Counted from the first letter of the stretch, positions 1 to 17,370 are shown. The stretch is DNA of 64,000 nucleotides from Trypanosoma brucei (GCA_000002445.1 CP000071.1:2208001-2272000), one strand, 5' to 3'. Notes: generated by a model from the letters alone, not told the origin. Translations and numbers: made by a program.

Positions 1-1
1 A

Positions 2-955
2 TGTGTGGCATATGTGATTTCTGTGGGTGATATCCTGAGTGCTACCTTAAAGGGTACCAACGCTCCGGATTTCCTGAAGCAGAAGTCAGGCAACCGACTG
101 CTTACAATTGGCATGTGGTTATGCTTCATGCTTCCACTTGTAATACCTCGGCGCATTGACTCCCTACGTTATGTTTCAACGTTCGCCGTCAGTTTCATGG
201 TGTACCTTGTCATCGCCATTGTAGTGCACTCATGCATGAATGGGTTACCGGAAAATATCAAGAACGTCAGTGTGGGAAAGGATGACAATGCTGAGATTAT
301 ATTGTTTAACAGTGGGAACAGAGCCATCGAAGGTCTTGGGGTGATAATGTTCGCATATGTGTGCCAAGTTGTCGCACTTGAAGTTTATGAGAACATGACA
401 AACCGGTCCGTGGGAAGGTTCGTAATTGCATCTGCAATTGCATTGGGTATCTGCTTCACATTGTACGTAATGACATCCTTTTTTGGTTACATGGACTTTG
501 GTCGTGCTGTTACTGGCTCTGTGCTTCTGATGTATGACCCAGTGAATGAACCTGCAATTATGGTCGGTTTCGTTGGTGTGCTCGTCAAGCTATGCGTATC
601 ATACGCTATTCTCGCTATGGCTTGCCGCAATGCACTGTATGATGTCGTGGGATGGGATGCCGACAAGGTTGCCTTCTGGAAGCATTGCATTGCCGTTGTT
701 ACTCTCTCTGTCGTCATGTTGTTGTGTGGCTTATTCATCCCAAAGATCAACACAGTTCTTGGGTTCGCTGGTTCCATCTCTGGTGGATCGCTGGGTTTCA
801 TTCTTCCTTCCTTATTGGTGATGTATTCCGGTGGCTTTACGTGGCAGAAGGTGGGTCCGTTTTATTATCTTACTACATACGCTGTATTACTTACAGGTGT
901 TATTGCCATTGTATTTGGCACGGGGTGCGCTATCTGGGGAACTTTCACTGGTTAG
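2..955 (+). CDS. Amino acid transporter (AAAP/AAT family), paralog A copy, 5' end cut by window edge (C-terminal ~317 aa present)
   Basis: The frame is open from position 2 to a TAG at 953-955. The translation is ~99% identical to residues 151-466 of the full paralog A gene at 2397-3797. The ORF track's start at 5 is a GTG, not a real start. Confidence 0.85.
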   Translation, partial: CVAYVISVGDILSATLKGTNAPDFLKQKSGNRLLTIGMWLCFMLPLVIPRRIDSLRYVSTFAVSFMVYLVIAIVVHSCMNGLPENIKNVSVGKDDNAEIILFNSGNRAIEGLGVIMFAYVCQVVALEVYENMTNRSVGRFVIASAIALGICFTLYVMTSFFGYMDFGRAVTGSVLLMYDPVNEPAIMVGFVGVLVKLCVSYAILAMACRNALYDVVGWDADKVAFWKHCIAVVTLSVVMLLCGLFIPKINTVLGFAGSISGGSLGFILPSLLVMYSGGFTWQKVGPFYYLTTYAVLLTGVIAIVFGTGCAIWGTFTG

Positions 956-987
956 TTGGCTTATGTGTAGCATATCGGAATGTATCG

Positions 988-1305
988 TATGATGTCGTGG
1001 GATGGGATGCCGACAAGGTTGCCTTCTGGAAGCATTGCATTGCCGTTGTTACTCTCTCTATCGTCATGTTGCTGTGTGGCTTATTCATCCCAAAGATCAA
1101 CACAGTTCTTGGGTTCGCTGGTTCCATCTCTGGTGGATTGTTGGGTTTCATTCTTCCTGCGCTATTCTTCATGTATTCTGGTGGCTTTACGTGGCAAAAG
1201 GTTGGTCCCTTTTATTACATTTCCACTTATGTTCTACTGATCACAGGTGTTATCGCAGCCGTATTTGGCACAGGTGCTACCATTTGGGCAGTTACTGTGG
1301 GATGA
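988..1305 (+). pseudogene. 3' fragment (about the last 105 codons) of a third AAT paralog, fused into the 3' UTR of the upstream AAT gene
   Basis: Positions 956-985 match the 3' UTR start of paralog A (compare 3798-3830). At a TGTAT microhomology the sequence switches into AAT coding sequence (YDVVGWDADKVAFWKHC...IWAVTVG, stop at 1303-1305). It is out of frame with the upstream gene, has no start codon of its own, and is ~85% identical to the A C-terminus rather than identical. Confidence 0.7.
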
Positions 1306-2295
1306 TTAGCGTAGGTTCTGCGCACAGGAATGCATTCTACAGCAAGAGGCCAGTCGCACATGTGAATTGTTACCCGAAAACGGCAGGTTAGAAATGTGAT
1401 ACCTGTGCAATGCAGGAATAAAAGTGTGCTTAAGTGTTTAAAAAACGAAGAAAATTAATTTAACGTTTCTCTCACCGACAAATCGTATACCTTCTCTCAT
1501 TTATCCGTTCCAACACGTATTTCAAACACGGTTCCCCTCTCCAAAACGTTATTTTATTTTGTCAATTATTTCCTTTGTTCGTGTCGACACGAGTGTTTCT
1601 CCATTTAGGAAGGGAATTTCAAGTGCGAAGAGGGGACATTGTGTTATATTTACTTTCTTTCCATCCTTCGTACACTATTTTTTCTTTGTAACGCCCTCCC
1701 TATCCGTATTATTTTATTTTTTTAATGGTTGTGCGTGAAGCACAACTGCTTAACGAAAAGCGCTTGTAGGGCCGGTGGGTAATTATTTTCTACATATTTT
1801 GTTGTATGCTCCCTAATATACTACAGAAACATTAGCAGCTGCCCACAAAGGTAGTTGTTGTAAGCTTCTGTCGCATAGTATCTCTTTCGTCTCTTTCTTC
1901 TTGCTTAAGATGTACATAAAGGATTCTTGATACATGCTACCACGTTGTGCAAACCAAATAACACTAATGGAACAGGGGCACTATCAGATTTGCTAACACA
2001 GTGGAGCATGAGCATGCAAGTGATTCCAATGATGCAGATCACGCGGAAAGGCTAATTGCTCTGTTATTAACTGCATTTGGTAATTGTACTAGCACCATTA
2101 TGTGCTCGGAGTGAGCGTTCCATAGTACTATGGCTGTGGCAAGTTTCAGAGTGTGGGATGAGTTAACAACGATGCCAAGAACGCTGGCCGCTATTCCCTA
2201 AGATGCGTCTGCACTGCCACCGTAGCAAGTAACGTCTCTAGGCAGTTAACCCTTATGTGTATGTGTAACACTCCGATGCTACTTCTCCACTCGCT

Positions 2296-2360
2296 AAGCC
2301 GTTTTGTTCCCCTTAACATTATTACTTTCCCCTTACCTCATATTTTCTATATCCATCAAG
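2296..2360 (+). promoter_or_regulatory. Polypyrimidine tract plus AG dinucleotide, candidate trans-splice acceptor for paralog A
   Basis: A CT-rich run (ttttgttccccttaacattattactttccccttacctcatattttctatatccatcaag) ends in AG about 38 nt upstream of the ATG at 2397. This is the typical kinetoplastid arrangement. Confidence 0.45.
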
Positions 2361-2396
2361 TGTATAACCACAAAGACACTTAACCACCAAAAGAAA

Positions 2397-3797
2397 ATGA
2401 CCAGCATCAATGCCCAACCACCCAACTCAGCCACTTATCCTCAGGATGATCATGGCAGCGCAGAAGTTGTGAACCCAAATCCTGAGGCACCCCTTTCCCA
2501 AAATGAACTAAAGAATAGTGGTGGTTGCTTTGCCAGGGTGAGTTTATTTATGGCAACTATCATCCCACCGGGAGGTATCGCCGCAAGCGCCTTCAACATT
2601 GCCGCTTCATCTGTTGGTGCCGGTATCATTGGCTTGCCTTCTGCCGCCAACAGCAGTGGGCTTGTGATGGCGATGATTTATCTTATTATCATTACGGCAA
2701 TGTCTGTGTTTACAATGCACAATCTCGCAGTGGTTGCTGATAAGACTAATGTGTACACGTACGAAGGAGTTGCCCGTGTCCTGCTGGGTCGCTGGGGAGA
2801 GTACTACGTAGCTGTTGTTCGTGCTTTCCATGGCTTTAGTGCATGTGTGGCATATGTGATTTCTGTGGGTGATATCCTGAGTGCTACCTTAAAGGGTACC
2901 AACGCTCCGGATTTCCTGAAGCAGAAGTCAGGCAACCGGCTGCTTACAATTGGCATGTGGTTATGCTTCATGCTTCCACTTGTAATACCTCGGCACATTG
3001 ACTCCCTACGTTATGTTTCAACCATCGCCGTCAGTTTCATGGTGTACCTCGTCATCGCCATTGTAGTGCACTCATGCATGAATGGGTTACCGGAAAATAT
3101 CAAGAACGTCAGTGTGGGAAAGGATGACAATGCTGAGATTATATTGTTTAACAGTGGGAACAGAGCCATCGAAGGTCTTGGGGTGATAATGTTCGCATAT
3201 GTGTGCCAAGTTGTCGCACTTGAAGTTTATGAGAACATGACAAACCGGTCCGTGGGAAGGTTCGTAATTGCATCTGCAATTGCATTGGGTATCTGCTTCA
3301 CATTGTACGTAATGACAGCCTTCTTTGGTTACATGGACTTTGGTCGTGCTGTTACTGGCTCTGTGCTTCTGATGTATGACCCAGTGAATGAACCTGCAAT
3401 TATGGTCGGTTTCGTTGGTGTGCTCGTCAAGCTATGCGTATCATACGCTATTCTCGCTATGGCTTGCCGCAATGCACTGTATGATGTCGTGGGATGGGAT
3501 GCCGACAAGGTTGCCTTCTGGAAGCATTGCATTGCCGTTGTTACTCTCTCTGTCGTCATGTTGTTGTGTGGCTTATTCATCCCAAAAATCACAACTGTGC
3601 TGGGGTTCGCTGGTTCCATCTCTGGTGGATCGCTGGGTTTCATTCTTCCTTCCTTATTGGTGATGTATTCCGGTGGCTTTACGTGGCAGAAGGTGGGTCC
3701 GTTTTATTATCTTACTACATACGCTGTATTACTTACAGGTGTTATTGCCATTGTATTTGGTACGGGAGCGACCATCTGGGGAACTGCGACTGGTTAA
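2397..3797 (+). CDS. Amino acid transporter (AAAP/AAT family), paralog A, full length (466 aa)
   Basis: The ORF 2304-3797 has a first plausible ATG at 2397 (MTSINAQPP...); the 31 codons upstream translate a polypyrimidine tract. The protein has multiple hydrophobic helices and AAT-like motifs (GGIAASAFNIAASSVGAGIIGLP, N-terminal hydrophilic tail). Confidence 0.85.
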   Translation: MTSINAQPPNSATYPQDDHGSAEVVNPNPEAPLSQNELKNSGGCFARVSLFMATIIPPGGIAASAFNIAASSVGAGIIGLPSAANSSGLVMAMIYLIIITAMSVFTMHNLAVVADKTNVYTYEGVARVLLGRWGEYYVAVVRAFHGFSACVAYVISVGDILSATLKGTNAPDFLKQKSGNRLLTIGMWLCFMLPLVIPRHIDSLRYVSTIAVSFMVYLVIAIVVHSCMNGLPENIKNVSVGKDDNAEIILFNSGNRAIEGLGVIMFAYVCQVVALEVYENMTNRSVGRFVIASAIALGICFTLYVMTAFFGYMDFGRAVTGSVLLMYDPVNEPAIMVGFVGVLVKLCVSYAILAMACRNALYDVVGWDADKVAFWKHCIAVVTLSVVMLLCGLFIPKITTVLGFAGSISGGSLGFILPSLLVMYSGGFTWQKVGPFYYLTTYAVLLTGVIAIVFGTGATIWGTATG

Positions 3798-4345
3798 TTG
3801 GTTTATGTGTAGCATATCGGAATGTATCGTTTTAACGGGTTTATCGAGGCATGAACAGTACTATAAGTGCTGTAAAATAATATTATCATCACTATTATAG
3901 CAATGACACTGAGCGTAAACGTTACTAATAACACGGAAGTGAATGACTAGGCGACTTCTCTTTCCGCTTCACTACTCAAAAATATAACAACACATATTTT
4001 GTTTTTCTGCTGTTTCTGACAGTATAGTCCCCAACCCCAACTGAATCGCTTCAACCCAGGTCGGTTGATGTTTTTTCCCTAGTTGGCAACGCGCTCCAAC
4101 ATATCTTCGTTTAGTCTATGCGTGGCATCTGTAGAGTGGGTGGCTGGGACAACGCCATCTGTCTCCAGTTCTCGCACACTGTTCTTCGACCGATATTTCA
4201 TTATCTATTTTTTTTCTTACTGTTTTTGTTATGTCAATTATTATTTTAGCGTGGGGTTAATCCTGTTGTATGATGTAAACTAGTTGTATTGTTGCAATTA
4301 TTTTTTTTTATTCCGAGAAAAGGTAAATTTGGGTTGTCTGATCAC
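3798..4345 (+). repeat. A-to-B intergenic spacer, copy 1 of a ~4042-bp tandem unit
   Basis: Nearly identical to 7838-8387. Confidence 0.8.
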
Positions 4346-5986
4346 ATGTTTAAACTTCTTCGTATCATCACTCCGTCCCTGGCTCTTTGGTTCTTAACAC
4401 CAGGACAGTCGACTTCGTTCACATTGCGTGGGCATCTCCCTCAGTCCCATTCGCTGTACCTTTTCTCCCCAATTTCTTCTAGACTTTCCAAAGGCACAAA
4501 AGCAGGACAGACAGCGCCTCTTATGCATCCTGACGGAACCACTGCGCCTGATTCCTGGAGGCTCACGAACCCACCAGACTCCGTTGAGGCGGGGGCCACT
4601 GAGGGTGCGGCAACAGGTTCCTCAATCCCACATGGATCACCGGAGGCAACAGGTGACAAGGTTGGTGAAAACAATGACAGAGACCAATTGACCGCTTCGG
4701 GGGGGGAACGTTCGCAGCCATTCATGGAGTGCGTCAAAAAAGTGATACCGCCGGGTGGTTTGGTCTCCACGGTGTTCAATCTCGCTGCCATGTGCATCGG
4801 TGCCGGCATCCTCGGTCTTCCCGCAGCAGCTAATAGCAGCGGTCTGGTGATGATGTTTGTGTATCCTACAGTTATTGTTTTTCTTTCCATATACTCGCTC
4901 TACTGCCTCGCCACGCAGATAGAAAGGCACGGTCTAAAGTCCTACGAAGGCATGTCGAGGGCGCTGCTGGGTCCATGGTCCGCTTACCTTACTGGCGTGC
5001 TGCGTGCGCTCAATACCTTTGGCGCCTGCGTGGCGTTTATCATTGCCGTGGGTGATATCCTGAGTGCCATTCTAAAGGGTACCAACGCTCCAGATTTCCT
5101 GAAGCAGAAGTCAGGCAACCGATTGCTAACGTCCATCATCTGGCTATGTTTCATGCTCCCACTTGTAATACCCCGCAGCGTAAACACACTCCGCTACATA
5201 TCAACCATAGGAATTACATCCATCTGCTACCTTGTTGTCGTTATCGTGGTGCATTCGTACATGAATGGATTACCCGACAACATCAAAAAAGTGCATTTGA
5301 CTGGTGCCCCAGGTGATGAAGGCATTCACCTCTTTGGCACAGGAAATAAAGCAGTGGAAGGTCCGGGCGTCTTCATGTTCGCTTTTCTCTGCCAAGCGAA
5401 TTCGTTCGAAGTATACTTGGGCATGCCGCAACCCAACGTGCACAGGTTTACAGCCTACACAGCCATCGCCATGGCCGTATGCTTCGTGCTGTGCATTTTC
5501 GCAGCCTTCTTTGGTTACCTGGATTTTGGTGGGGCTGTTACTGGATCTGTGCTTCTGATGTATGACCCAGTGAATGAACCTGCAATTATGGTCGGTTTCG
5601 TTGGTGTGCTCGTCAAGCTGTGTGCGTCATATGCATTGCTGGCAATGGCTTGTCGTAATGCACTGTATAGTTTTGTTGGGTGGGATGCCGACGAGGTCGC
5701 CTTCTGGAAGCATTGCGTTTTTGTGATCTCCCTCTCTGCGGTTATCTTATTGTGCGGTCTCTTCATCCCAACCATAAACACGGTGTTTGGCTTCGTTGGG
5801 GCTGTTTGTGGAGGCTTTCTTGCCTTCATCCTCCCTTCGCTATTCATCATGTATGGCGGGGGCTGGTCCCTGAAGACGGTTGGATGGTGCCACTACCTTG
5901 CGACATATGCAGTGCTGTTTGCAGGGGTGGCATTATGCGTATTTGGTACAGGCGCTACCGTGTACAGTGTCGCAGTGGAGTGGTAA
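4346..5986 (+). CDS. Amino acid transporter (AAAP/AAT family), paralog B copy 1 (~546 aa; start codon uncertain)
   Basis: ORF 4289-5986. The ATG at 4346 is the first one conserved in frame in both B copies; the upstream ATG at 4289 lies in a poly-T tract and is not conserved in copy 2. The core from about residue 140 aligns with paralog A. An alternative start at the in-frame Met of LMHPDG (~4526) cannot be excluded. Confidence 0.8.
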   Translation: MFKLLRIITPSLALWFLTPGQSTSFTLRGHLPQSHSLYLFSPISSRLSKGTKAGQTAPLMHPDGTTAPDSWRLTNPPDSVEAGATEGAATGSSIPHGSPEATGDKVGENNDRDQLTASGGERSQPFMECVKKVIPPGGLVSTVFNLAAMCIGAGILGLPAAANSSGLVMMFVYPTVIVFLSIYSLYCLATQIERHGLKSYEGMSRALLGPWSAYLTGVLRALNTFGACVAFIIAVGDILSAILKGTNAPDFLKQKSGNRLLTSIIWLCFMLPLVIPRSVNTLRYISTIGITSICYLVVVIVVHSYMNGLPDNIKKVHLTGAPGDEGIHLFGTGNKAVEGPGVFMFAFLCQANSFEVYLGMPQPNVHRFTAYTAIAMAVCFVLCIFAAFFGYLDFGGAVTGSVLLMYDPVNEPAIMVGFVGVLVKLCASYALLAMACRNALYSFVGWDADEVAFWKHCVFVISLSAVILLCGLFIPTINTVFGFVGAVCGGFLAFILPSLFIMYGGGWSLKTVGWCHYLATYAVLFAGVALCVFGTGATVYSVAVEW

Positions 5987-7304
5987 CGATAGAAGTGGGG
6001 CGTCACTCGTCCTTCTCCATACATGCCCCGTGTCGAGCAAATATCATTGGGCATATGCTCTCTAAAGCCCTATTGGGCTCGTGAGATGTTTTCCTCCCCT
6101 TTTATTATGTTTTAATGCGTACGTATTATCATTATTGGATTTACTCCTCTTCCGGTATGCTCACTCGAAAACGTGTACCTCCGGCCCAACCAGAGGGAGA
6201 TAGTGTAAGGACGCAGGGATACAGGCTGTGGTGCAATTATCCATTACTGTCTCATTTAATATTTTATTGATATAGCCAATCTTTTCAGCGGTAGCAGCCT
6301 TTTTGTGTGTGTTTTAACTCCTTTCGGAGCGACGTCAGTAATAAGGGAGAAAAGCGTCGATGTCTCTTGGTTACTCGTCTTTATTTTTTTTTTGGTGAGT
6401 CTCCAAGTAAGTCACTCTTCGAGTTGCACACCACTCGGGTGCATATGAATGGTGGCGCTTCTCGCTCCGTTAACTTCACTGTTTTTTGTTGTTGTAACTT
6501 AATCCCACTAACACAGCACCCGACTAGGGATGTTCCGGGAAGCTATAAAACGTGCGTGCATATTGTCAGAGAAGGATCATCTGAGCATGCTGATCGTTGT
6601 TCCCCTAGGATTCGTTCTTGATCTCCTTCTTTATCTACTCTCCCTTTGCTTTCCTTCCTCCTCATATTCTTTACGCTCTCTGTTGCAGCACAAATGTTAG
6701 CGATGGGTGACCCGGACATCCCTTAGTTCCTTCTTTTCAGCAGGTTACCTGTTGGCGTTTGATGATTGTACCAATATCGGAGCTACAAGCAAAGTTGGCA
6801 GTATGCATATATGTTACAAATCCATGTACCCGTTGAACACCACTGTGGTCTGTTTCCCATTGCGTCTCCAGGGCTGATATGTATGCATTGTGTTTACCCT
6901 GAATCATGAACGCGGCCGCGCAACTCCTGGAAAATGGTGTCTGGTACGTTCTTTGTTTTGTTCCTTGCCGCGGCTGCATGGCAGTAGACAGTTATTAGCT
7001 GGATGTACAAATACACAGAGCCTTCCTTCATAAGGTTGAAAACTAAGGATAGTCATGTGTTCTAACAAACAATCACAAGTGGATGTTTCTTCGGCACTTC
7101 ACGCCGAACCGAATGCATCTACTCTCGTCTCTTGTAATGTCTCTTGGACTCGGAAGATGGCACCCGTCAGCTCATGGGGTGTCGCGACAATGGGGAAGAG
7201 GAAGGGTTAACGCACGCACTACTGTTCGTGATGCACGAGAGCCAAATAATCTGCTGCTGACGAAGGGCGCATCGGTCTAATGGGTGTACCCCATTACCAT
7301 TACT
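5987..7304 (+). repeat. B-downstream spacer, copy 1 (1.3 kb, part of the tandem unit)
   Basis: About 99% identical to 10029-11346 apart from a small indel near 6370/10412. Confidence 0.8.
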
Positions 7305-7837
7305 GTTTAGCGCCGTCCTATGTGTTGGCTATCTGCTTCACATTGTACGTAATGACAGCCTTCTTTGGTTACATGGATTTTGGTGGGGCTGTTACTGGAT
7401 CTGTGCTTCTGATGTATGACCCAGTGAATGAACCTGCAATTATGGTCGGTTTCGTTGGTGTGCTCGTCAAGCTATGCGTATCATACGCTATTCTCGCTAT
7501 GGCTTGCCGCAATGCACTGTATGATGTCGTGGGATGGGATGCCGACAAGGTTGCCTTCTGGAAGCATTGCATTGCCGTTGTTACTCTCTCTGTCGTCATG
7601 TTGCTGTGTGGCTTATTCATCCCCAAAATCACAACTGTGCTGGGATTGGCTGGTTCCATCTCTGGTGGATCGCTGGGTTTCCTATTTCCCGCCTTATTGG
7701 TGATGTATTCCGGTGGCTTTACGTGGCAGAAGGTGGGTCCGTTTTATTATCTTACTACATACGCTGTATTACTTACAGGTGTTATTGCCATTGTATTTGG
7801 TACGGGAGCGACCATCTGGGGAACTGCGACTGGTTAA
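7305..7837 (+). pseudogene. 5'-truncated paralog A fragment (last ~177 codons), possibly expressible as chimeric ORF 7280-7837
   Basis: Matches 3265-3797 of paralog A nearly base-for-base. The upstream junction follows ...cctatgtgttggct, which in the downstream unit (11340) continues into unrelated sequence. An in-frame ATG at 7280 in spacer sequence creates a 185-aa ORF covering the last ~5 TM helices. The region around 7375-7395 carries B-like bases (FGGAVTG instead of FGRAVTG). Confidence 0.7.
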
Positions 7838-8387
7838 TTGGTTTATGTGTAGCATATCGGAATGTATCGTTTTAACGGGTTTATCGAGGCATGAACAGTA
7901 CTATAAGTGCTGTAAAATAATATTATCATCACTATTATAGCAATGACACTGAGCGTAAACGTTACTAATAACACGGAAGTGAATGACTAGGCGACTTCTC
8001 TTTCCGCTTCACTACTCAAAAATATAACAACACATATTTTGTTTTTCTGCTGTTTCTGACAGTATAGTCCCCAACCCCAACTGAATCGCTTCAACCCAGG
8101 TCGGTTGATGTTTTTTCCCTAGTTGGCAACGCGCTCCAACATATCTTCGTTTAGTCTATGCGTGGCATCTGTAGAGTGGGTGGCTGGGACAACGCCATCT
8201 GTCTCCAGTTCTCGCACGCTGTTCTTCGACCGATATTTCATTATCTATTTTTTTTCTTACTGTTTTTGTTATGTCGATTATTATTTTAGCGTGGGGTTAA
8301 TCCTGTTGTATGATGTAAACTAGTTGTATTGTTGCAATTGTTTATTTTTTTATTCCGAGAAAAGGTAAATTTGGGTTGTCTGATCAC
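7838..8387 (+). repeat. A-to-B intergenic spacer, copy 2
   Basis: Nearly identical to 3798-4345. Confidence 0.8.
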
Positions 8388-10028
8388 ATGTTTAAACTTC
8401 TTCGTATCATCACTCCGTCCCTGGCTCTTTGGTTCTTAACACCAGGACAGTCGACTTCGTTCACATTGCGTGGGCATCTCCCTCAGTCCCATTCGCTGTA
8501 CCTTTTCTCCCCAATTTCTTCTAGACTTTCCAAAGGCACAAAAGCAGGACAGACAGCGCCTCTTATGCATCCTGACGGAACCACTGCGCCTGATTCCTGG
8601 AGGCTCACGAACCCACCAGACTCCGTTGAGGCGGGGGCCACTGAGGGTGCGGCAACAGGTTCCTCAATCCCACATGGATCATCGGAGGCAACAGGTGACA
8701 AGGTTGGTGAAAACAATGACAGAGACCAATTGACCGCTTCGGGGGGGGAACGTTCGCAGCCATTCATGGAGTGCGTCAAAAAAGTGATACCGCCGGGTGG
8801 TTTGGTCTCCACGGTGTTCAATCTCGCTGCCATGTGCATCGGTGCCGGCATCCTCGGTCTTCCCGCAGCAGCTAATAGCAGCGGTCTGGTGATGATGTTT
8901 GTGTATCCTACAGTTATTGTTTTTCTTTCCATATACTCGCTCTACTGCCTCGCCACGCAGATAGAAAGGCACGGTCTAAAGTCCTACGAAGGCATGTCGA
9001 GGGCGCTGCTGGGTCCATGGTCCGCTTACCTTACTGGCGTGCTGCGTGCGCTCAATACCTTTGGCGCCTGCGTGGCGTTTATCATTTCTGTGGGTGATAT
9101 CCTGAGTGCCATTCTAAAGGGTACCAACGCTCCAGATTTCCTGAAGCAGAAGTCAGGCAACCGATTGCTAACGTCCATCATCTGGCTATGTTTCATGCTC
9201 CCACTTGTAATACCCCGCAGCGTAAACACACTCCGCTACATGTCAGCCATAGGAATTACATCCATCTGCTACCTTGTTGTCGTTATCGTGGTGCATTCGT
9301 ACATGAATGGATTACCCGACAACATCAAAAAAGTGCATTTGACTGGTGCCCCAGGTGATGAAGGCATTCACCTCTTTGGCACAGGAAATAAAGCAGTGGA
9401 AGGTCCGGGCGTCTTCATGTTCGCTTTTCTCTGCCAAGCGAATTCGTTCGAAGTATACTTGGGCATGCCGAAACCCAACGTGCACAGGTTTACAGCCTAC
9501 ACAGCCATCGCCATGGCCGTATGCTTCGTGCTGTGCATTTTCGCAGCCTTCTTTGGTTACCTGGATTTTGGTGGAGCTGTTACTGGATCTGTGCTTCTGA
9601 TGTATGACCCAGTGAATGAACCTGCAATTATGGTCGGTTTCGTTGGTGTGCTCGTCAAGCTATGCGTATCATATGCATTGGTGGCAATGGCTTGTCGTAA
9701 TGCACTGTATAGTTTTGTTGGGTGGGATGCCGACGATGTCGCCTTCTGGAAGCATTGCGTTTTTGTGATCTCCCTCTCTGCGGTTATCTTATTGTGCGGT
9801 CTCTTCATCCCAACCATAAACACGGTGTTTGGCTTCGTTGGGGCTGTTTGTGGAGGCTTTCTTGCCTTCATTCTCCCTTCGCTATTCATCATGTATGGCG
9901 GGGGCTGGTCCCTGAAGGCGGTTGGATGGTGCCACTACCTTGCGACATATGCAGTGCTGTTTGCAGGGGTGGCATTATGCGTATTTGGTACAGGCGCTAC
10001 CGTGTACAGTGTCGCAGTGGAGTGGTAA
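8388..10028 (+). CDS. Amino acid transporter (AAAP/AAT family), paralog B copy 2 (~546 aa)
   Basis: ORF 8376-10028. About 98-99% identical to B copy 1, with a few substitutions: IIAVGD to IISVGD, YISTIG to YMSAIG, QPNVH to KPNVH, CASYALLAM to CVSYALVAM, ADEVAF to ADDVAF, KTVGW to KAVGW. Confidence 0.85.
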   Translation: MFKLLRIITPSLALWFLTPGQSTSFTLRGHLPQSHSLYLFSPISSRLSKGTKAGQTAPLMHPDGTTAPDSWRLTNPPDSVEAGATEGAATGSSIPHGSSEATGDKVGENNDRDQLTASGGERSQPFMECVKKVIPPGGLVSTVFNLAAMCIGAGILGLPAAANSSGLVMMFVYPTVIVFLSIYSLYCLATQIERHGLKSYEGMSRALLGPWSAYLTGVLRALNTFGACVAFIISVGDILSAILKGTNAPDFLKQKSGNRLLTSIIWLCFMLPLVIPRSVNTLRYMSAIGITSICYLVVVIVVHSYMNGLPDNIKKVHLTGAPGDEGIHLFGTGNKAVEGPGVFMFAFLCQANSFEVYLGMPKPNVHRFTAYTAIAMAVCFVLCIFAAFFGYLDFGGAVTGSVLLMYDPVNEPAIMVGFVGVLVKLCVSYALVAMACRNALYSFVGWDADDVAFWKHCVFVISLSAVILLCGLFIPTINTVFGFVGAVCGGFLAFILPSLFIMYGGGWSLKAVGWCHYLATYAVLFAGVALCVFGTGATVYSVAVEW

Positions 10029-11346
10029 CGATAGAAGTGGGGCGTCACTCGTCCTTCTCCATACATGCCCCGTGTCGAGCAAATATCATTGGGCATATGC
10101 TCTCTAAAGCCCTATTGGGCCCGTGAGATGTTTTCCTCCCCTTTTATTATGTTTTAATGCGTACGTATTATCATTATTGGATTTACTCCTCTTCCGGTAT
10201 GCTCACTCGAAAACGTGTACCTCCGGCCCAACCAGAGGGAGATAGTGTAAAGACGCAGGGATACAGGCTGTGGTGCAATTATCCATTACTGTCTCATTTA
10301 ATATTTTATTGATATAGCCAATCTTTTCAGCGGTAGCAGCCTTTTTGTGTGTGTTTTAACTCCTTTCGGAGCGACGTCAGTAATAAGGGAGAAAAGCGTC
10401 GATGTCTCTTGGGTTTTGGTTTTTTTTCATTGCTTAGTGAGTCTCCAAGTAAGTCACTCTTCGAGTTGCACACCACTCGGGTGCATATGAATGGTGGCGC
10501 TTCTCGCTCCGTTAACTTCACTGTTTTTTGTTGTTGTAACTTAATCCCACTAACACAGCACCCGACTAGGGATGTTCCGGGAAGCTATAAAACGTGCGTG
10601 CATATTGTCAGAGAAGGATCATCTGAGCATGCTGATCGTTGTTCCCCTAGGATTCGTTCTTGATCTCCTTCTTTATCTACTCTCCCTTTGCTTTCCTTCC
10701 TCCTCATATTCTTTACGCTCTCTGTTGCAGCACAAATGTTAGCGATGGGTGACCCGGACATCCCTTAGTTCCTTCTTTTCAGCAGGTTACCTGTTGGCGT
10801 TTGATGATTGTACCAATATCGGAGCTACAAGCAAAGTTGGCAGTATGCATATATGTTACAAATGCATGTACCCGTTGAACACCACTGTGGTCTGTTTCCC
10901 ATTGCGTCTCCAGGGCTGATATGTATGCATTGTGTTTGCCCTGAATCATGAACGCGGCCGCGCAACTCCTGGAAAATGGTGTCTGGTACGTTCTTTGTTT
11001 TGTTCCTTGCCGCGGCTGCATGACAGTAGACAGTTATTAACTGGATGTACAAATACACAGAGCCTTCCTTCATAAGGTTGAAAACTAAGGATAGTCATGT
11101 GTTCTAACAATCACAAGTGGATGTTTCTTCGGCACTTCACGCCGAACCGAATGCATCTACTCTCGTCTCTTGTAATGTCTCTTGGACTCGGAAGATGGCA
11201 CCCGTCAGCTCATGGGGTGTCGCGACAATGGGGAAGAGGAAGGGTTAACGCACGCACTACTGTTCGTGATGCACGAGAGCCAAATAATCTGCTGCTGACG
11301 AAGGGCGCATCGGTCTAATGGGTGTACCCCATTACCATTACTGTTT
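10029..11346 (+). repeat. B-downstream spacer, copy 2; the tandem array ends at ~11346
   Basis: Matches 5987-7304. After ...gtgttggct it runs into unique sequence. Confidence 0.8.
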
Positions 11347-11975
11347 AGCGCCGTCCTATGTGTTGGCTCTGAAAGCAGTAAGTCGAATCTGCGCGAAGTA
11401 CTGAAGTTTTACTGCTGCGCTCTGGAGCCGCTGCACTACATGCGGAGGGGACGTATCCTGAATGTGCGCCTCAGGTAGGGAGGGAAGTAGACCTTTGTTG
11501 CTCTTTCCCCTCGGCGAATAGGCGAAATCAAGTGGAAGGGAGGCTGTGCGAAGATTTCCCACTAAAGCCCCGAAAGTGGGAGCGGTTTTGTGGACTTCAT
11601 TTTTCTGATGCTTGTATAAGTTCATAAATGTTTTGAGTGTGTCGGTGTTTTATCAATCCCTATGTGCGCTTGAATGGGCGTATTTGTGGTTCGATCGATC
11701 CTGTGGATCGGCAGGGCCTAACGACTTTTGGCGGTAAGTTTCTTTCTCCCCCTTGTCTTTTGCCTTGTTCCTCCCCCAGTAGCATGTATCCCTGAATAAA
11801 TCAAAGTGGCGCACACAACGTTCTTTCTTTCGTCTGCGTGCGTAGGCGTGCAGAAGTACATCTCTATCTAGTGGTGTGGGTTGACCTCCCATTTATTGTT
11901 CGTTAAGGCGTCATAGTTCTTTGTTTTCCTTTCTTTTTCTTTCCATCGTAAAAAACCACTGGTTCCCGAACTCAA

Positions 11976-12341
11976 ATGGGAGGAGTGAAGTTCGCCGTGC
12001 TGGCACTGCTTGTATTTGCCTTGCTGTATGTCGTCACGCGCGTTTTGTTGACACGTCACCGATCAAATCCGCGAAACGACGGACGCCAACAGCACACGGA
12101 GCCTAGTTGGGACATCACCAACGGAGCCAATATTCCTGTGGTTCAGCCAATGGAAAGCACACCACCACTGTCAGAACCAGGCGTGTTGCTGGCTATTCCT
12201 TTAGCATGGCACCGGGAGATCCCTCTGTCATCGAGACCAAGTAGAAGTGACACGGGAAATAGGCCAGTAAATCCCTTAGAACGCGCACCGGACGGACCGG
12301 AGGTCGTCTACTCTCATGCAAAGTACATCCCCCGAGCCTGA
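11976..12341 (+). CDS. Hypothetical small protein with an N-terminal hydrophobic segment (121 aa)
   Basis: A same-strand ORF preceded by a CT-rich tract (tctttgttttcctttctttttctttcc). The N-terminus (FAVLALLVFALLYVVTRVLL) looks like a signal anchor. No family recognised. Confidence 0.3.
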   Translation: MGGVKFAVLALLVFALLYVVTRVLLTRHRSNPRNDGRQQHTEPSWDITNGANIPVVQPMESTPPLSEPGVLLAIPLAWHREIPLSSRPSRSDTGNRPVNPLERAPDGPEVVYSHAKYIPRA

Positions 12342-13052
12342 AGTGCGTCTTGACAGGAGCTAAAGATAGATTCGGATGAAGGGTGCAAAAAAAAAAAACG
12401 GCGACAGCTGCAGGAGGCGTGCGGAACGCATTTAGTTGCATAAGTCAGTGTGGAGTGGGAAGTGCGGGTGAATAGGTCGTAGCAACTTGTTGCCGTATGG
12501 AACACATCGTGCTGTCCTTTTGAGGGAGACTGCGTATGCAATAAACTTTGCCCACCCTAAGCTTTGGGCCGATCTCACATTGTTGCACGGCGTGTTTCCG
12601 CTTCCTTTTAGCACAGGTATGTTATATGTGTATCCTAAAGGTGTAGGATATGTATATTTTAATAGTATCTTTGTTGCAGTTGAATGTTTATTTGTGACAT
12701 TATTATTTTGTATTATTATCATACACTTTGTCTGCGCAAATCCGCTACAGATGAAGGACTTTTTAGAGGTTGGAGAGGAAAAATAATAGTAACGATGACA
12801 ATAATGACATTCAATGGGGGGGTGGTCCACGTCACTGGGTGGGTTGACTGCCACTGCTGATGACCTTCATGATACAATACTCTTAATGCTGGTGTGTCGG
12901 TGGTCGTTGGCCGCATAGGCTTTTGCAGCACTGGCTCTGTCACTGCTAACATGGTTTCCCTCTTCTTCCTCGAACACGTATGCTCGCTGCCGCGGACTAC
13001 TCGTACATCCACATGCGTCTCTTACCTTCATATCTTTCAGTTGATAAGTACG

Positions 13053-13089
<37 letters not shown>
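13053..13089 (+). repeat. Composite microsatellite (CA)n(TA)n
   Basis: cacacacacacacacacacacatatatatatatata, read directly. Confidence 0.95.
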
Positions 13090-13273
13090 TTTTAACGCAT
13101 ATCCCTGAGGTGTGTCGTTCGCGCCCGCATTGCGCAAGCCGTGTGTCCGCTCACAAAGGCATCATACTCGTTGCTCAGCGTGACGACAATTCCCTTCGCT
13201 GGCCATCAAGCAGAGGAACTTGTGGGAGTTGTAAAACAAAGGTCAAAAAGAAAGGAGGTGGGGCCAAGGGGAC

Positions 13274-13933
13274 ATGGAAACCACGCACATAATCAACGTG
13301 GTTTCTTTTAGTGTTCTATTCTTTTGCCTACTTACGATAACAATTGAGTACGTAGTTTCGAGTAGGCGGCAGCGCCGCCTTGCGAATGCGAGGTCACGGG
13401 AAAGAGAGCATTTGGAAGTCACCAGACGTAACACCACGGACCATATGCGCAGAAAACTGACGCGACAGGCCATCGAGCTCCTTCTCGCCAACGGCTACGT
13501 GACTGAAGGAATCGCCTTAGCTTCCATGGTGGGGACTACGGAGGTGCCTGTGGATAGGGAGTTACGTCCCAATAGGCCTCGACGGAGGCCAAATTTAGTC
13601 ACCGTGGCGGACGGTAGTCGCATGAGCATAAGTCGTGTAGTGCAGCGGGCGCGAGCAAATGGCCAAGCACCCGATGCTCCACCTGGTCCTGTGCTCATGG
13701 AGCTCCTTGAGAAGCTACAGCAGCAGATGCAGCGTGAAAATGAATCACAGCCCTTCAGTGGGCCGGTACACACACCAGTGGAAGAGCTGGTGGTGCGGTT
13801 AGTGAAGTTGGAGGGGGACGCGAAGGGTCTTGAAAAGCCCTCAGCTGCAGATGAGACATATGGGAAGCCAGTTGAGTACACCATAAATCCGGCCAACAGT
13901 TCTATTTGGTACGTTGGGAACAACTGTTGGTGA
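13274..13933 (+). CDS. Hypothetical single-pass membrane protein, tandem paralog 1 (219 aa)
   Basis: An N-terminal hydrophobic segment (VVSFSVLFFCLLTITIEYVV) is followed by a basic stretch RRQRRLANARSRE. It shares blocks with the ORF at 14999 (ELLLANGYVTEGIALASMVGTTEV, SGQAPDAPPGPVLMELLEKLQ, TYGKPVEYTINPAN). Confidence 0.6.
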   Translation: METTHIINVVSFSVLFFCLLTITIEYVVSSRRQRRLANARSREREHLEVTRRNTTDHMRRKLTRQAIELLLANGYVTEGIALASMVGTTEVPVDRELRPNRPRRRPNLVTVADGSRMSISRVVQRARANGQAPDAPPGPVLMELLEKLQQQMQRENESQPFSGPVHTPVEELVVRLVKLEGDAKGLEKPSAADETYGKPVEYTINPANSSIWYVGNNCW

Positions 13934-14749
13934 AGCGGTGGCAGTGTTTATATGAAAAAAGTAGAAAGTGGGGGAGCGACGGCGCGCCTCTAATCATTTC
14001 GAGTGTATGTGTTCCGGCACAATTCAAGGGAATGTGTAAAAGGGACATGTGACTTTAATCCTCCGTTAGGAAAAAAAAAGTTGAGGAGCAAGGAAATAGG
14101 CTTCGGGTGCCGTATTTCAATTGGTTATCTCCTTAGTTGTTGTCACACATTATTTTTTGGAGCTTTCTCTGGAGGTGACTACTTCGTTGTTGTTTTACTG
14201 AAACTTCTACCCATCTTTTTTTTGTCTCCATTGATTTACCCTCACATGTCTTTGTTCCCCGTAGCGATAGTTGCTCCTTGTTATTTATTTTACTGTTTCT
14301 ACCGCCCGGTTTTGCTCAAATTTGTCATGTGATTATTGTGCAATCGTGTCATTAATAACGTCATTCTCAGCTTCTTTTCGCCTTTTAAAGTAGAAGGAGT
14401 GCAGTGCTTCGGGGGCTATAAATTGGGCTATGAATATTTCCTTATTTGTTTGATTGTTACCACCACTTTTTTATTTTATTTTACTTTCTCCTCTCTGCGT
14501 TCATATTTTTGTGTTTTTTAGACGTTATTGTCTTTTCTTTTTTCTCCTTTAATTATACACGAAAAGTGTGAAGAACCCTCTCTTTTTTTATTGTGTCAGT
14601 CACCTCCTTTCTTTCACTTTTTTCCCTTACTCCACACAATTACCCATTTCGATGCACAACCATGTATAAATTTCTTTTTTCATTGTTTGCCGTTGATCTC
14701 CCACGTGCTTATACGTGCTTATCGCCCTCATACCTTTCAGTTGATAGGT

Positions 14750-14785
14750 ACACACACACATATATATATATATATAATATATATA
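14750..14785 (+). repeat. Composite microsatellite (CA)n(TA)n
   Basis: Same flanking context (cctttcagttgata[ag]gta ... ccctgaggtgtgtcgttcgcgccc[ag]cattgcgcaa) as the copy at 13053, so part of a duplicated upstream module. Confidence 0.95.
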
Positions 14786-14998
14786 CGCATACCCCTGAGG
14801 TGTGTCGTTCGCGCCCACATTGCGCAATCCGTGTGTCAATCTGTAATTTCCCCATCGGCATAAGCGGTGGCTGGTCGGCACACCGTTGCACACACGTCAG
14901 GAAAAAATTATACATTTCAGCTCGGGATCGCCCCAGTGAACAGAAGGACGAACATTCCCTTCACAGGCCACTAGTCGAGAAATTCTTGGGCGACAGCA

Positions 14999-15676
14999 AT
15001 GGCGACAAATAAGGGAATAACGTTTCAAGTCATAGTGGGCATCGCCGCACTGCTTTCGGCGTTCATAATAATTATGATATGCATTATAGTCATCGAGAGG
15101 AGGCGTCTTCGGAATGCGAGGGCACGGCAGAACGTGCAGCTCGACCCAGCGGCACTTAATCTCACTGGTGAGCAGTTGCGCCACCGTTTGATACGCCACG
15201 CCGTTGACCTCCTTTTAGCTGATAACTATGTATGTGAGGGGATTACCTTAACTTCCACAGTGGGTGTGACGGAAGTTCTCGCGGACAGGGAATTACGCTC
15301 CACCCGCGGTAGGCCGTATTTCATTACGACGGCAAATGGTCGGCGTGCCACCATTTCACAAGTAGTGCAGCAGACGCGCGCAAGTGGTCAAGCACCCGAT
15401 TCCCCGCCAGGTCCTGCGTTGATGGAACTCCTCGAGAAATTGCAGCACGCCCGAAGGGCGGAGCCGGTACCCAATGAAGCGCTTTGCAAACAAGTGGAGG
15501 AACTGATGGAGCGTCTCATAAAACTCGAGGAGGCTAATCAAAGGAAAGATATGAAAACTGATGCAGATGAAGTGTATGGGAAAGCAGCACAGTATGCAAC
15601 GAACCCAGCTAATAAATGCGTTCGCCACGTCATGAACGCTGTTGGGGTAGGAAGAAGTCTGGTCGCTTCCCGATAA
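14999..15676 (+). CDS. Hypothetical single-pass membrane protein, tandem paralog 2 (225 aa)
   Basis: N-terminal TM segment (VIVGIAALLSAFIIIMICIIVI) then RRRLRNARARQ. Paralogous to 13274-13933 across its length. Confidence 0.65.
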   Translation: MATNKGITFQVIVGIAALLSAFIIIMICIIVIERRRLRNARARQNVQLDPAALNLTGEQLRHRLIRHAVDLLLADNYVCEGITLTSTVGVTEVLADRELRSTRGRPYFITTANGRRATISQVVQQTRASGQAPDSPPGPALMELLEKLQHARRAEPVPNEALCKQVEELMERLIKLEEANQRKDMKTDADEVYGKAAQYATNPANKCVRHVMNAVGVGRSLVASR

Positions 15677-16377
15677 AATGAGACATTTAGACAAAACAGG
15701 GAAAAAAGCGTAACCTTCCGCTTCTCTTCCATCCTATGCACACACACTACGTGCGGGCGCGCTTCCCTGTAGTCGCTCGTTTGGAGCACCGTCTAGCTTG
15801 TATTCCTTTGAAATATATGGAAAGAAAAGGAGAAAGTGGGAGGAAAGGAAAATGATTCTAATATTTTTAAAGAATTAAGAGAGGGAGTGACTAAGCAATG
15901 TGTGCGCCACAAAACCAAGGAAAAGAAGAAAGGGGGAAATCAGTAACAAAAATGCAAACGTGCGTCCGGCCACCTGTTGGGACCCAAAGTGGATGAAAAA
16001 TTGCGGTATATTTTAACTGCTTGATATGGTGAGGTGGAAACAATGGAAGGAGGAATAAAGGTGAGGAAGTTTCATATTCCTCTCTTTATTTGTTGATCTC
16101 CCAACACACACACACATATACACTTCCTCCTCATTACCATCCCCACTCATCATTCTTCTGTCGAGTACTTCCTTTCGTTTTGTTTTGTTTTCTCCCTTTC
16201 CTTCTCTTCCTGTAGTGTTCGTTTGTGTTTTTTTTTTTTAGATTGTGGACTGTTATTATTAATATTAATATTACAGAGAAAGGCGTAATGGGTAATTACC
16301 CAATATCTAGGACTACGGTATTGCTATACGTCGACGACTTGATTTATTTGTCGCCCTGTAATTGAATGGAGGGACGG

Positions 16378-16419
<42 letters not shown>
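16378..16419 (+). repeat. Composite microsatellite (CA)n(AT)n
   Basis: Read directly. Confidence 0.95.
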
Positions 16420-17335: not shown

Positions 17336-17369
<34 letters not shown>

Positions 17370-17370
17370 G
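17336..17370 (+). repeat. Composite microsatellite (TA)n(TG)n
   Basis: Read directly. This is the reverse orientation of the (CA)n(TA)n type. Confidence 0.95.

What the first reader, a model, noticed from the sequence alone, without database searches (positions are those of the whole stretch)
3361..3433. A 73-bp perfect-identity tract between diverged paralogs A and B marks gene conversion, with a longer A-like tract in B copy 2
A (3361-3433) and B (5549-5621) are base-for-base identical, including synonymous positions, over ctgtgcttctgatgtatgacccagtgaatgaacctgcaattatggtcggtttcgttggtgtgctcgtcaagct. Elsewhere the two genes differ at about 30-40% of nucleotides. In B copy 2 (9589-9680) the A-like sequence continues further (gctatgcgtatca, giving CVSYA rather than CASYA). 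The same holds around 9071-9090 (atttctgtgggtgatatc, A-like ISVGD). The A fragment at 7375-7395 conversely carries B-like bases. Together this points to bidirectional, ongoing gene conversion between non-identical transporter paralogs, which could create chimeric substrate specificities.
Basis: seen in the sequence. Interest (0 to 1): 0.5.

Follow-up and report, generated by a model that had tools for sequence, protein, structure and literature searches.

The report
Gene conversion between trypanosome transporter paralogs
Two old, diverged amino-acid-transporter genes that sit next to each other on Trypanosoma brucei chromosome 8 share a 74-base identical stretch because they copy short patches of DNA from one another. 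This is real and still happening, but the same kind of exchange was already published for this gene array in 2007.

Summary
In B2 the identity runs 86 nt (9588-9673), and in the A fragment 100 nt (7374-7473).

The window is T. b. brucei TREU927 chromosome 8, the AAT7 array. "A" is AAT7-A (Tb927.8.7650 and 7670, with pseudogene 7690). "B" is AAT7-C (Tb927.8.7680 and 7700).

Overall A and B are 62-63% identical, and dS outside the tracts is saturated. The split between the two types predates the T. brucei / T. congolense split.

- The identical run exceeds every one of 5000 permutations, for all sites and for silent codons.
- Trees of the tract and of a second segment (2859-2989) group genes by locus. 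The rest of the gene groups them by type.
- The chromosome 4 sister array is homogenised over the same two segments with a different sequence. T. congolense A and C types are only 52-53/74 identical there.
- Eight of 11 changes private to TREU927 7700 are A-like (P = 8e-6) and are absent from T. equiperdum.

Bidirectional, ongoing gene conversion is therefore supported. No RNA element or antisense constraint was found. Jackson (2007) already reported conversion in this array, so novelty is low. The idea of chimeric substrate specificity is untested.

The parts
2..955 (+). Its copy of the tract is at 518-591.
   Evidence: 98% identical to 2843-3797. The exact 73-mer is at 519. The full 466-aa protein XP_847594 of TREU927 falls in the same 90% cluster as A1.
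976..1305 (+). 3' gene fragment (pseudogene Tb927.8.7660) fused to the 3' UTR of 7650. It starts downstream of the tract, so it is not part of the conversion.
   Evidence: 84-88% identical to the A 3' ends. The junction sequence was read. Haindrich 2021 (PMC8094907) lists 7660 as a pseudogene.
2397..3797 (+).
   Evidence: Exact match to XP_847595. Pfam PF01490, E = 3e-45.
3360..3433 (+). The 74-nt tract in A1 that is identical to AAT7-C. It encodes aa 322-346, SVLLMYDPVNEPAIMVGFVGVLVKL, a loop running into a hydrophobic segment.
   Evidence: Informative-site run 3348-3436, where A = C-type but differs from AAT7-B.
2859..2938 (+). Second homogenised segment in A1. Identical runs of 20, 19 and 29 nt to B1, and 26, 19 and 29 nt to B2. 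It encodes ISVGDILSATLKGTNAPDFLKQKSGNR.
   Evidence: dS is 0.45 here against 3.2 outside the tracts. The tree groups genes by locus.
4523..5986 (+). 487 aa from MHPDG, annotated as 546 aa from 4346.
   Evidence: Exact match to XP_847596. Pfam PF01490, E = 1e-48.
5546..5619 (+). The 74-nt tract in B1.
7325..7837 (+). 3' fragment of an AAT7-A gene (pseudogene Tb927.8.7690), created by the tandem duplication. It carries a C-type patch (7378, 7385, 7387, 7399), so 7374-7473 is identical to B1 over 100 nt. It also carries a Tb927.8.7600-like patch at 7682-7691.
8565..10028 (+).
   Evidence: Exact match to XP_847597.
9588..9673 (+). Tract in B2, extended to 86 nt by four A-like bases (9662, 9665, 9667, 9668) that are private to TREU927.
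9084..9109 (+). Edge of the second segment in B2, lengthened from 20 to 26 identical nt by A-like bases at 9087 and 9089 (IIAVGD -> IISVGD).
3285..11368 (+). Two copies of a ~4040-nt tandem duplication unit (3285-7330 and 7325-11368). They differ at 48-49 substitutions and 2 small indels, and the differences are clustered. The junction has TTGG(G/C)T microhomology.

Best explanation
**What it is.** The tract is a product of non-allelic (intra-array) gene conversion between two old paralog types of AAAP amino-acid transporter. Both types lie in the AAT7 tandem array on T. brucei chromosome 8.

**Shown.**
- The two types separated before T. brucei and T. congolense diverged, and they are saturated at silent sites.
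- Two short segments (A1 coordinates ~2859-2989 and ~3316-3445) have been homogenised within the locus.
- The 74-nt core was fixed before TREU927, T. b. gambiense and T. equiperdum diverged.
- Newer short patches, private to TREU927, extend the identity at the tract edges in both directions. A-type sequence has entered 7700, and C-type sequence has entered 7690.

**Inferred.**
- Mechanism: a break or mispairing between neighbouring copies is repaired from the paralog. The heteroduplex can only seed where protein conservation has kept enough nucleotide identity. Mismatch rejection stops it within a few to ~100 nt. Each event lengthens the identical stretch available to the next one.
- Direction of the old tract: probably C-type into A-type. 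AAT7-A carries the residues AIM and VKLC, which mark C-type genes in T. congolense. AAT7-B and the T. congolense A-types have (A/E)V(M/L) and VMLF.
- Function: the effect is probably small, at most one or two conservative residue changes per event.
For: - **Identity of the locus.** The window's proteins match TREU927 XP_847595, XP_847596 and XP_847597 exactly. Subgroup names come from PMC8094907.
- **Run length.** 74 nt (86 nt to B2) against a permutation mean of 13.7 and maximum of 35. 22 consecutive identical silent codons (26 to B2) against a maximum of 19 (21 for B2). No permutation out of 5000 reached the observed values.
- **Silent divergence.** dS is 3.2 outside the tracts, 0.28 over 45 codons around the tract, and 0 within it.
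- **Trees.** The rest of the gene groups by type with 100% bootstrap, T. congolense included. The tract region and segment 2 group by locus: chr8 99-100%, chr4 100%. In the tract AAT7-A joins AAT7-C (100%); elsewhere it joins AAT7-B (100%).
- **Tract identities.**

| Comparison | Identical of 74 |
|---|---|
| chr8 A vs C | 74 |
| chr4 A4 vs B4 | 73 |
| chr4 version vs chr8 version | 55-59 |
| T. congolense A vs C | 52-53 |

. The same two segments are homogenised in both T. brucei arrays.
- **Recent events.** 11 changes are private to TREU927 7700 and 8 of them are A-like (binomial P = 8e-6). The other four C-type copies have 0-2 private changes and none is A-like. The T. equiperdum copy of 7690 lacks the C-like patch.
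- **Not an assembly artefact.** The 74-nt tract is present in three independent assemblies.
- **Literature.** Jackson 2007 found GENECONV/SISCAN conversion events in AAT7Tb. One is a 19-bp event at 1042-1061 with donor copy 9 (7680) and recipient copy 1 (7600). This matches the C-like CASYALL patch I see in the T. b. gambiense 7600 ortholog at A1 3435-3454 (CDS 1039-1058), and the TREU927 7600 protein carries the same residues.
Against: - The TREU927-private patches rest on a single Sanger-era consensus. I could not check reads or other T. b. brucei strains.
- The two isolated A-like sites (9471, 9872) could be coincidental point mutations.
- Donor direction for the old tract rests on four diagnostic residues. 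It has no statistical test.
- The trees are NJ on p-distances over only ~130 columns. The grouping of T. congolense A with C in those trees could partly reflect species-specific codon usage. The chr4 versus chr8 contrast within one genome is free of that problem.
- Both tracts lie in protein segments that are more conserved than average (T. congolense A vs C dN is 0.22-0.30 against 0.40 for the whole gene). Constraint therefore contributes some of the raised identity around the core.
Confidence: 0.9

Rival explanations
1. The tract is identical because of very strong purifying selection, not exchange. The selection would act on the peptide together with codon choice, on an RNA element, or on an antisense reading frame.
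For: The tract encodes a well-conserved loop and helix, and protein divergence there is below the gene average in every lineage. Antisense ATG-started ORFs of 104 and 111 aa overlap the tract in A1 and B1.
Against: - T. congolense A and C types differ at 21-22 of the 74 positions.
- The chr4 array carries a version with 15-19 differences that is nevertheless shared between its own two types.
- AAT7-B, the closest relative of AAT7-A, differs at 14 of 74 positions.
- Rfam gave only one sub-threshold hit per A copy, next to the tract and not in it (21.8 bits against a gathering score of 44.5).
- The fold is no more stable than shuffles (z = -0.44).
- The antisense frame is closed in the chr4 copies and in the T. 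congolense C-type copies (21-37 aa).
- Strain-private extensions at the tract edges cannot be produced by constraint.
Confidence: 0.04
2. The identity, or at least the strain-specific patches, is an assembly or consensus artefact of a repetitive array. Reads from paralogs or from the two haplotypes would have been merged.
For: The array contains 4-kb units that are about 99% identical. Jackson 2007 notes that tandem arrays are hard to assemble. The T. b. gambiense assembly shows only one C-type gene. The recent patches are seen in TREU927 only.
Against: The 74-nt tract is identical in three independent assemblies: TREU927, DAL972 and T. equiperdum. A and C differ by 37% outside the tracts, so reads of several hundred bases could not be confused between them. 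The patches sit exactly at the edges of existing identity tracts, as conversion predicts.
Confidence: 0.05
3. The shared tract is a remnant of chimeric gene formation by unequal crossing-over during array expansion, not of conversion between intact genes.
For: The array clearly undergoes unequal or illegitimate recombination. Examples are the tandem duplication with its junction inside an A gene, the 7650/7660 fusion, and a single intact gene at that position in T. equiperdum.
Against: The tract is internal and is flanked on both sides by type-specific sequence in every copy. That needs two exchanges within ~100 nt, which is conversion in effect. A single crossover would give genes that are A-like on one side and C-like on the other, and none was seen.
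Confidence: 0.03

Closest known systems
Partial gene conversion in the T. brucei AAT7 and AAT4 amino-acid-transporter arrays (Jackson 2007, BMC Evol Biol 7:26, PMC1810246)
   Same: - It concerns the same genome (TREU927), the same array and the same mechanism.
- Jackson lists five GENECONV/SISCAN events in AAT7Tb and identifies copies 9 and 11 (here B1 and B2) as a separate lineage.
- His 19-bp event (1042-1061, donor 9, recipient 1) lies immediately 3' of the tract studied here.
   Different: - The 74-nt tract shared by all AAT7-A and AAT7-C copies is not in his table. Being fixed in all those copies, it looks like conservation within a single-array alignment.
[quoted passage not shown]
- The cross-array comparison here shows that two segments have nevertheless been homogenised between the forms, independently on chromosomes 4 and 8.
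Chimaeric copies in T. brucei tandem arrays generally (Jackson 2007, BMC Evol Biol 7:54, PMC1855330). Classic cases cited in PMC2212663 are the phosphoglycerate kinase genes (Le Blancq 1988) and the hexose transporters (Bringaud & Baltz 1994).
   Same: Short conversion tracts between neighbouring, non-identical duplicates in polycistronic arrays. 21 of 47 arrays contained chimaeric copies.
   Different: The partners here are much more diverged (37% at nucleotide level, silent sites saturated) than most converting pairs. The tracts are correspondingly short and confined to conserved segments.
AAT7-B proline/alanine transporters (Haindrich 2021, J Biol Chem, PMC8094907)
   Same: Same locus and same protein family. 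The paper supplies the A/B/C subgroup names and the pseudogene status of 7660 and 7690.
   Different: Only AAT7-B members were characterised functionally. The passages I read say nothing about the substrates of AAT7-A or AAT7-C, so any effect of the exchanges on specificity cannot be judged.

Membership tests
Non-allelic gene conversion between tandem paralogs | A tract of identity, including silent sites, that is significantly longer than expected from the background divergence of the pair | tested here: met
   74 nt (86 nt to B2) against a permutation maximum of 35. 22 silent codons in a row (26 to B2) against a maximum of 19 (21 for B2). 0 of 5000 permutations reached these values. dS is 0 in the tract and 3.2 outside.
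Non-allelic gene conversion between tandem paralogs | Phylogenetic conflict between the tract and the flanking sequence | tested here: met
   The rest of the CDS groups by type (100%). The tract and segment 2 group by locus (99-100%). Informative sites switch from A = AAT7-B to A = AAT7-C between 3348 and 3436.
Non-allelic gene conversion between tandem paralogs | The identity is absent from orthologous or paralogous pairs elsewhere, so it is not universal constraint | tested here: met
   T. congolense A vs C 52-53/74. The chr4 pair is 73/74 identical but differs from the chr8 version at 15-19 sites.
Non-allelic gene conversion between tandem paralogs | Non-reciprocal transfer: the recipient changes and the donor does not | tested here: inconclusive
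   For the recent patches only one copy changed (7700 or 7690), and all candidate donors keep their own type. This fits non-reciprocity. The actual donor copy and the reciprocal product cannot be observed from assemblies.
Non-allelic gene conversion between tandem paralogs | Variants are real in the organism and not assembly error | tested here: inconclusive
   The old tract appears in three assemblies. The TREU927-private patches appear in one assembly only, and reads were not available.
AAAP amino acid transporter family (Pfam PF01490, Aa_trans) | A match to the family profile above the curated cut-off over the full domain | tested here: met
   A1 scores 154.9 bits and B1 166.4 bits against a cut-off of 25.6, covering profile positions 4-409 of 410. 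The fragment 7280-7834 matches positions 232-409 only.
T. brucei AAT7 locus (Tb927.8.7600-7700) | Sequence identity to the annotated TREU927 genes, and synteny downstream of a GRESAG4-type adenylate cyclase | tested here: met
   Exact protein matches to XP_847595-7. In T. b. gambiense the array follows a gene with PF00211 (guanylate/adenylate cyclase catalytic domain) plus Peripla_BP domains.
Structured or curated RNA element | An Rfam match, or folding energy beyond shuffled controls | tested here: not met
   No Rfam hit in the tract. z = -0.44.

The most novel reading that the evidence does not exclude
The same two short segments are homogenised between the two transporter types independently in the chromosome 8 and chromosome 4 arrays. 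One is a hydrophilic loop (LKGT.AP.FLK.K.GN). The other is the loop plus helix MYDPV.EPAIMVGF. In TREU927 both are still being extended.

The most novel reading is that this is more than homology-limited repair. Selection would retain or favour locus-wide identity of these segments, for example because co-expressed neighbours share a partner or a trafficking or regulatory determinant. That would contradict the published view that the two types are too dissimilar to exchange.
Probability: 0.15. Interest if true: 0.4.

Novelty: already known. Interest (0 to 1): 0.2.

Why it matters
It is a clean worked example of how far gene conversion can reach between very old paralogs. The two types are 37% diverged and silent sites are saturated. 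Exchange is confined to islands of about 20-100 nt that are kept similar by protein constraint, and those islands grow at their edges.

In practice these tracts distort phylogenies and dS estimates for the trypanosome AAT family. They also make gene-specific probes, RNAi fragments, CRISPR guides and proteomic peptides ambiguous across the AAT7-A and AAT7-C genes. They show that a within-array GENECONV scan misses tracts that are already fixed in every copy; comparison with the chromosome 4 duplicon exposes them.

The biology is not new. Conversion in this array was published in 2007, and no functional consequence has been shown.

Tried and rejected
- **RNA element.** An Rfam scan of 1-12000 at E<=1 gave only three identical sub-threshold hits to a bacterial sRNA model, next to the tract and not in it. 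Folding of 3340-3450 was no better than shuffles. Rejected.
- **Antisense ORF under selection.** It is open in the chr8 copies but closed in the chr4 copies and in the T. congolense C-type copies. Rejected.
- **TREU927 DNA upstream of the window, and other T. b. brucei strains.** Look-ups for P0023, for the 7700 protein and for P0092 (7600) found no DNA record. I used the P0092 protein sequence and the T. b. gambiense ortholog instead.
- I re-fetched the same contig as L005.
- **** timed out and was redone with numpy.
- the T. b. gambiense anchor landed on the wrong array copy, so that column should be ignored.
- **Site 3289/7329** first looked like a B-like base in the fragment. It is actually the intergenic side of the duplication junction, so I did not count it as conversion.
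- **Singleton A-like sites 9471 and 9872** are not claimed as separate events.
- **Not run:** structure prediction, large protein searches beyond the first, and metagenome scans. They would not bear on the question.

Full report
**What is in the window**

The first 12 kb carry the 3' end of a tandem array of amino-acid-transporter genes on the + strand.

| Feature | Coordinates | Notes |
|---|---|---|
| A-type gene, partial | 2-955 | cut by the window start |
| 3' gene fragment | 976-1305 | fused to the 3' UTR of the preceding gene |
| A-type gene (A1) | 2397-3797 | full length, 466 aa |
| B-type gene (B1) | 4523-5986 | 487 aa from MHPDG |
| A-type 3' fragment | 7325-7837 | |
| B-type gene (B2) | 8565-10028 | |

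- The last two features come from a tandem duplication of a ~4040-nt unit (3285-7330 copied to 7325-11368). The copies differ at 48-49 substitutions.
- The duplication junction lies inside the A gene at a TTGG(G/C)T microhomology.
- A1 and B1 match Pfam PF01490 (Aa_trans) over the whole domain.

**Where it comes from**

- A1, B1 and B2 are exact matches to T. b. brucei TREU927 proteins XP_847595, XP_847596 and XP_847597.
- This is the AAT7 locus of chromosome 8, Tb927.8.7600-7700.
- 7660 and 7690 are the two pseudogene fragments. AAT7-B (7610-7640) comprises the characterised proline/alanine transporters upstream of the window.

**The observation**

The quoted 73-mer occurs five times, at 519, 3361, 5547, 7401 and 9589. 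Maximal exact matches are below.

| Pair | Coordinates | Length |
|---|---|---|
| A1 vs B1 | 3360-3433 = 5546-5619 | 74 nt |
| A1 vs B2 | 3360-3445 = 9588-9673 | 86 nt |
| A fragment vs B1 | 7374-7473 = 5520-5619 | 100 nt |

Otherwise every stated detail is correct.
- A and B are 62-63% identical overall.
- A second region of raised identity lies at A1 2859-2938. It has runs of 20, 19 and 29 nt to B1, and 26, 19 and 29 nt to B2.

**Is it more than chance or constraint?**

- Shuffling alignment columns 5000 times gave longest identical runs with mean 13.7 and maximum 35, against 74 observed.
- Restricting to codons that encode the same degenerate amino acid gave 22 consecutive identical codons, against a permutation maximum of 19.
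- Outside the two regions only 42% of such codons are identical. Nei-Gojobori dS is 3.2 there, which is saturated. It is 0.28 over the 45 codons around the tract and zero within it.

**Comparative test**

I fetched four related arrays:
- the orthologous array of T. equiperdum (L001);
- the orthologous array of T. b. gambiense (L002);
- the paralogous AAT4 array on chromosome 4 of T. b. gambiense (L003), where A-like and C-like genes alternate;
- a T. congolense array with both types (L005).

Outside the two regions, an NJ tree groups genes by type with 100% bootstrap, and the T. congolense genes fall inside each type. The A/C split is therefore older than the T. brucei / T. congolense split.

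For the tract region (3316-3445) and for segment 2 (2859-2989), genes group by locus instead:
- all chromosome 8 copies group together (99-100%);
- all chromosome 4 copies group together (100%);
- within the tract, AAT7-A joins AAT7-C (100%) rather than its sister AAT7-B.

Identity over the 74 nt:

| Comparison | Identical of 74 |
|---|---|
| chr8 A vs C | 74 |
| chr4 A4 vs B4 | 73 |
| chr4 version vs chr8 version | 55-59 |
| T. congolense A vs C | 52-53 |

- Sliding windows show that the same two segments are homogenised in both T. brucei arrays. On chromosome 4 the identical runs reach 115 nt.
- The loop encoded by segment 2 reads GTNAPDFLKQKSGN in every chromosome 8 type. It reads GTDAP(D/N)FLKEKWGN in both chromosome 4 types. 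It differs between the types in T. congolense.
- This is the classic signature of exchange within a locus. It cannot come from a sequence-specific constraint.

**Recency and direction**

- The differences between the two duplication units are clustered.
- Using the T. equiperdum units as reference, most of the clusters are private to unit 2 of TREU927.
- Gene 7700 has 11 private substitutions and 8 of them give the A-type base. About 13% would be expected by chance (binomial P = 8e-6).
- The other four C-type copies have 0-2 private changes, and none is A-like.
- The clustered changes (9087 and 9089; 9662, 9665, 9667 and 9668) sit exactly at the edges of existing identity tracts and lengthen them.
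- Pseudogene 7690 has four C-type bases (7378-7399) that the T. equiperdum copy lacks. It also has a patch at 7682-7691 that matches the 7600-type AAT7-A gene.
- The T. b. gambiense ortholog of 7600 carries a C-type run at A1 coordinates 3435-3454. The TREU927 7600 protein shows the same CASYALL residues.
- Exchange therefore goes both ways and has continued since these strains separated.
- For the old 74-nt core the donor was probably the C type. AAT7-A has AIM and VKLC, as C-type genes of T. congolense do. AAT7-B and the T. congolense A-types have (A/E)V(M/L) and VMLF. This is an inference from four residues.

**Rival explanations**

- *RNA element:* no Rfam match in the tract, and folding is no better than shuffles (z = -0.44).
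- *Antisense ORF:* it is not conserved in the chromosome 4 or T. congolense C-type copies.
- *Assembly artefact:* the core is in three independent assemblies. Reads could not be confused between genes that are 37% different. The TREU927-private patches, however, rest on one assembly.
- *Single unequal crossover:* no copy switches type once and stays switched.

**Mechanism (inferred)**

- Repair or mispairing between neighbouring copies can only form heteroduplex where protein constraint has preserved enough nucleotide identity.
- In T. congolense both segments have a lower A-versus-C dN (0.22-0.30) than the whole gene (0.40).
- Mismatches then stop the tract within tens of bases, and each event enlarges the island available to the next.
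- Alternatively, conversion may start anywhere, with only tracts that do not move type-specific residues surviving selection. The present data do not separate these two options.

**Relation to the literature**

- Jackson 2007 (PMC1810246) analysed this same array in this same genome with GENECONV and SISCAN.
- He listed five conversion events in AAT7Tb and one in AAT4Tb, and recognised copies 9 and 11 as a distinct lineage.
- His events include a 19-bp transfer at 1042-1061 from copy 9 to copy 1. This corresponds to the C-type patch directly 3' of the tract studied here.
- A companion paper found chimaeric copies in 21 of 47 T. brucei arrays (PMC1855330).
- The 74-nt core and segment 2 are not in his table. 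They are fixed in all AAT7-A and AAT7-C copies, which probably makes them look like conservation within one array.
- His statement that the two forms are too dissimilar to misalign is qualified by the cross-array comparison here. That is a refinement, not a new phenomenon.

**Function**

- The tract encodes aa 322-346 of 7670, a short loop entering a hydrophobic segment. Segment 2 encodes the end of a helix and a hydrophilic loop.
- The recent events change one or two conservative residues each: A->S and A->V in 7700, and R->G in a pseudogene.
- The passages of Haindrich 2021 that I read describe substrates for AAT7-B only.

**Verdict**

It is not novel and is of modest interest.

Noticed in passing
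window 940-1305: The stop codon and about 30 nt of the 3' UTR of Tb927.8.7650 are fused directly to the last ~330 nt of another AAT7 gene (pseudogene 7660, C-terminus ATIWAVTVG as in AAT7-B). T. equiperdum has a single intact gene at this position (L001 7509-8909), and its 3' end is 99% identical to window 987-1305. So either TREU927 gained a partial duplication or T. equiperdum lost a segment by unequal crossing-over.
   Followed up: partly
window 6371-6394 vs 10413-10436: An intergenic 24-nt patch in a polypyrimidine stretch downstream of the AAT7-C genes differs at 11 positions between the two duplication units, which otherwise differ by about 1%. Both variants are conserved at the orthologous units of T. 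equiperdum, and the unit-2 form is present in T. b. gambiense. No donor sequence was found in the loci held.
   Followed up: partly
window 7682-7691 (pseudogene 7690): Five clustered substitutions relative to A1 match the T. b. gambiense ortholog of Tb927.8.7600, and the TREU927 7600 protein has the same GFLFPALL residues. The pseudogene has therefore also received sequence from a distant AAT7-A copy at the other end of the array.
   Followed up: partly
L003 (T. b. gambiense chromosome 4, AAT4 array) 8060-15459: The alternating A4 and B4 genes share identical runs of 71-115 nt and 45-91 nt over the same two gene segments as on chromosome 8, but with a different sequence. These inter-type tracts are much longer than the single 25-bp AAT4 event listed by Jackson 2007.
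   Followed up: yes
L005 (T. congolense CAEQ01002298.1) genes at 892-17755: In T. congolense the A-like and C-like genes are not homogenised in the two T. brucei segments. Their longest shared runs (23-28 nt) and highest identity (0.8-0.9) lie near the 3' end instead (A1 coordinates ~3564-3697). This suggests a different, lineage-specific exchange region.
   Followed up: no
window 13025-13147 and 14725-14837: A direct repeat made of (AC)n(AT)n microsatellite followed by about 60 nt of unique sequence, 82-88% identical between the two copies, lies downstream of the transporter array.
   Followed up: no
L002 (T. b. gambiense FN554971.1) 15341-18930: The DAL972 assembly has only one AAT7-C gene and no A-type fragment, where TREU927 and T. 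equiperdum have the duplicated unit. This is either a real copy-number difference or a collapsed repeat in that assembly.
   Followed up: no
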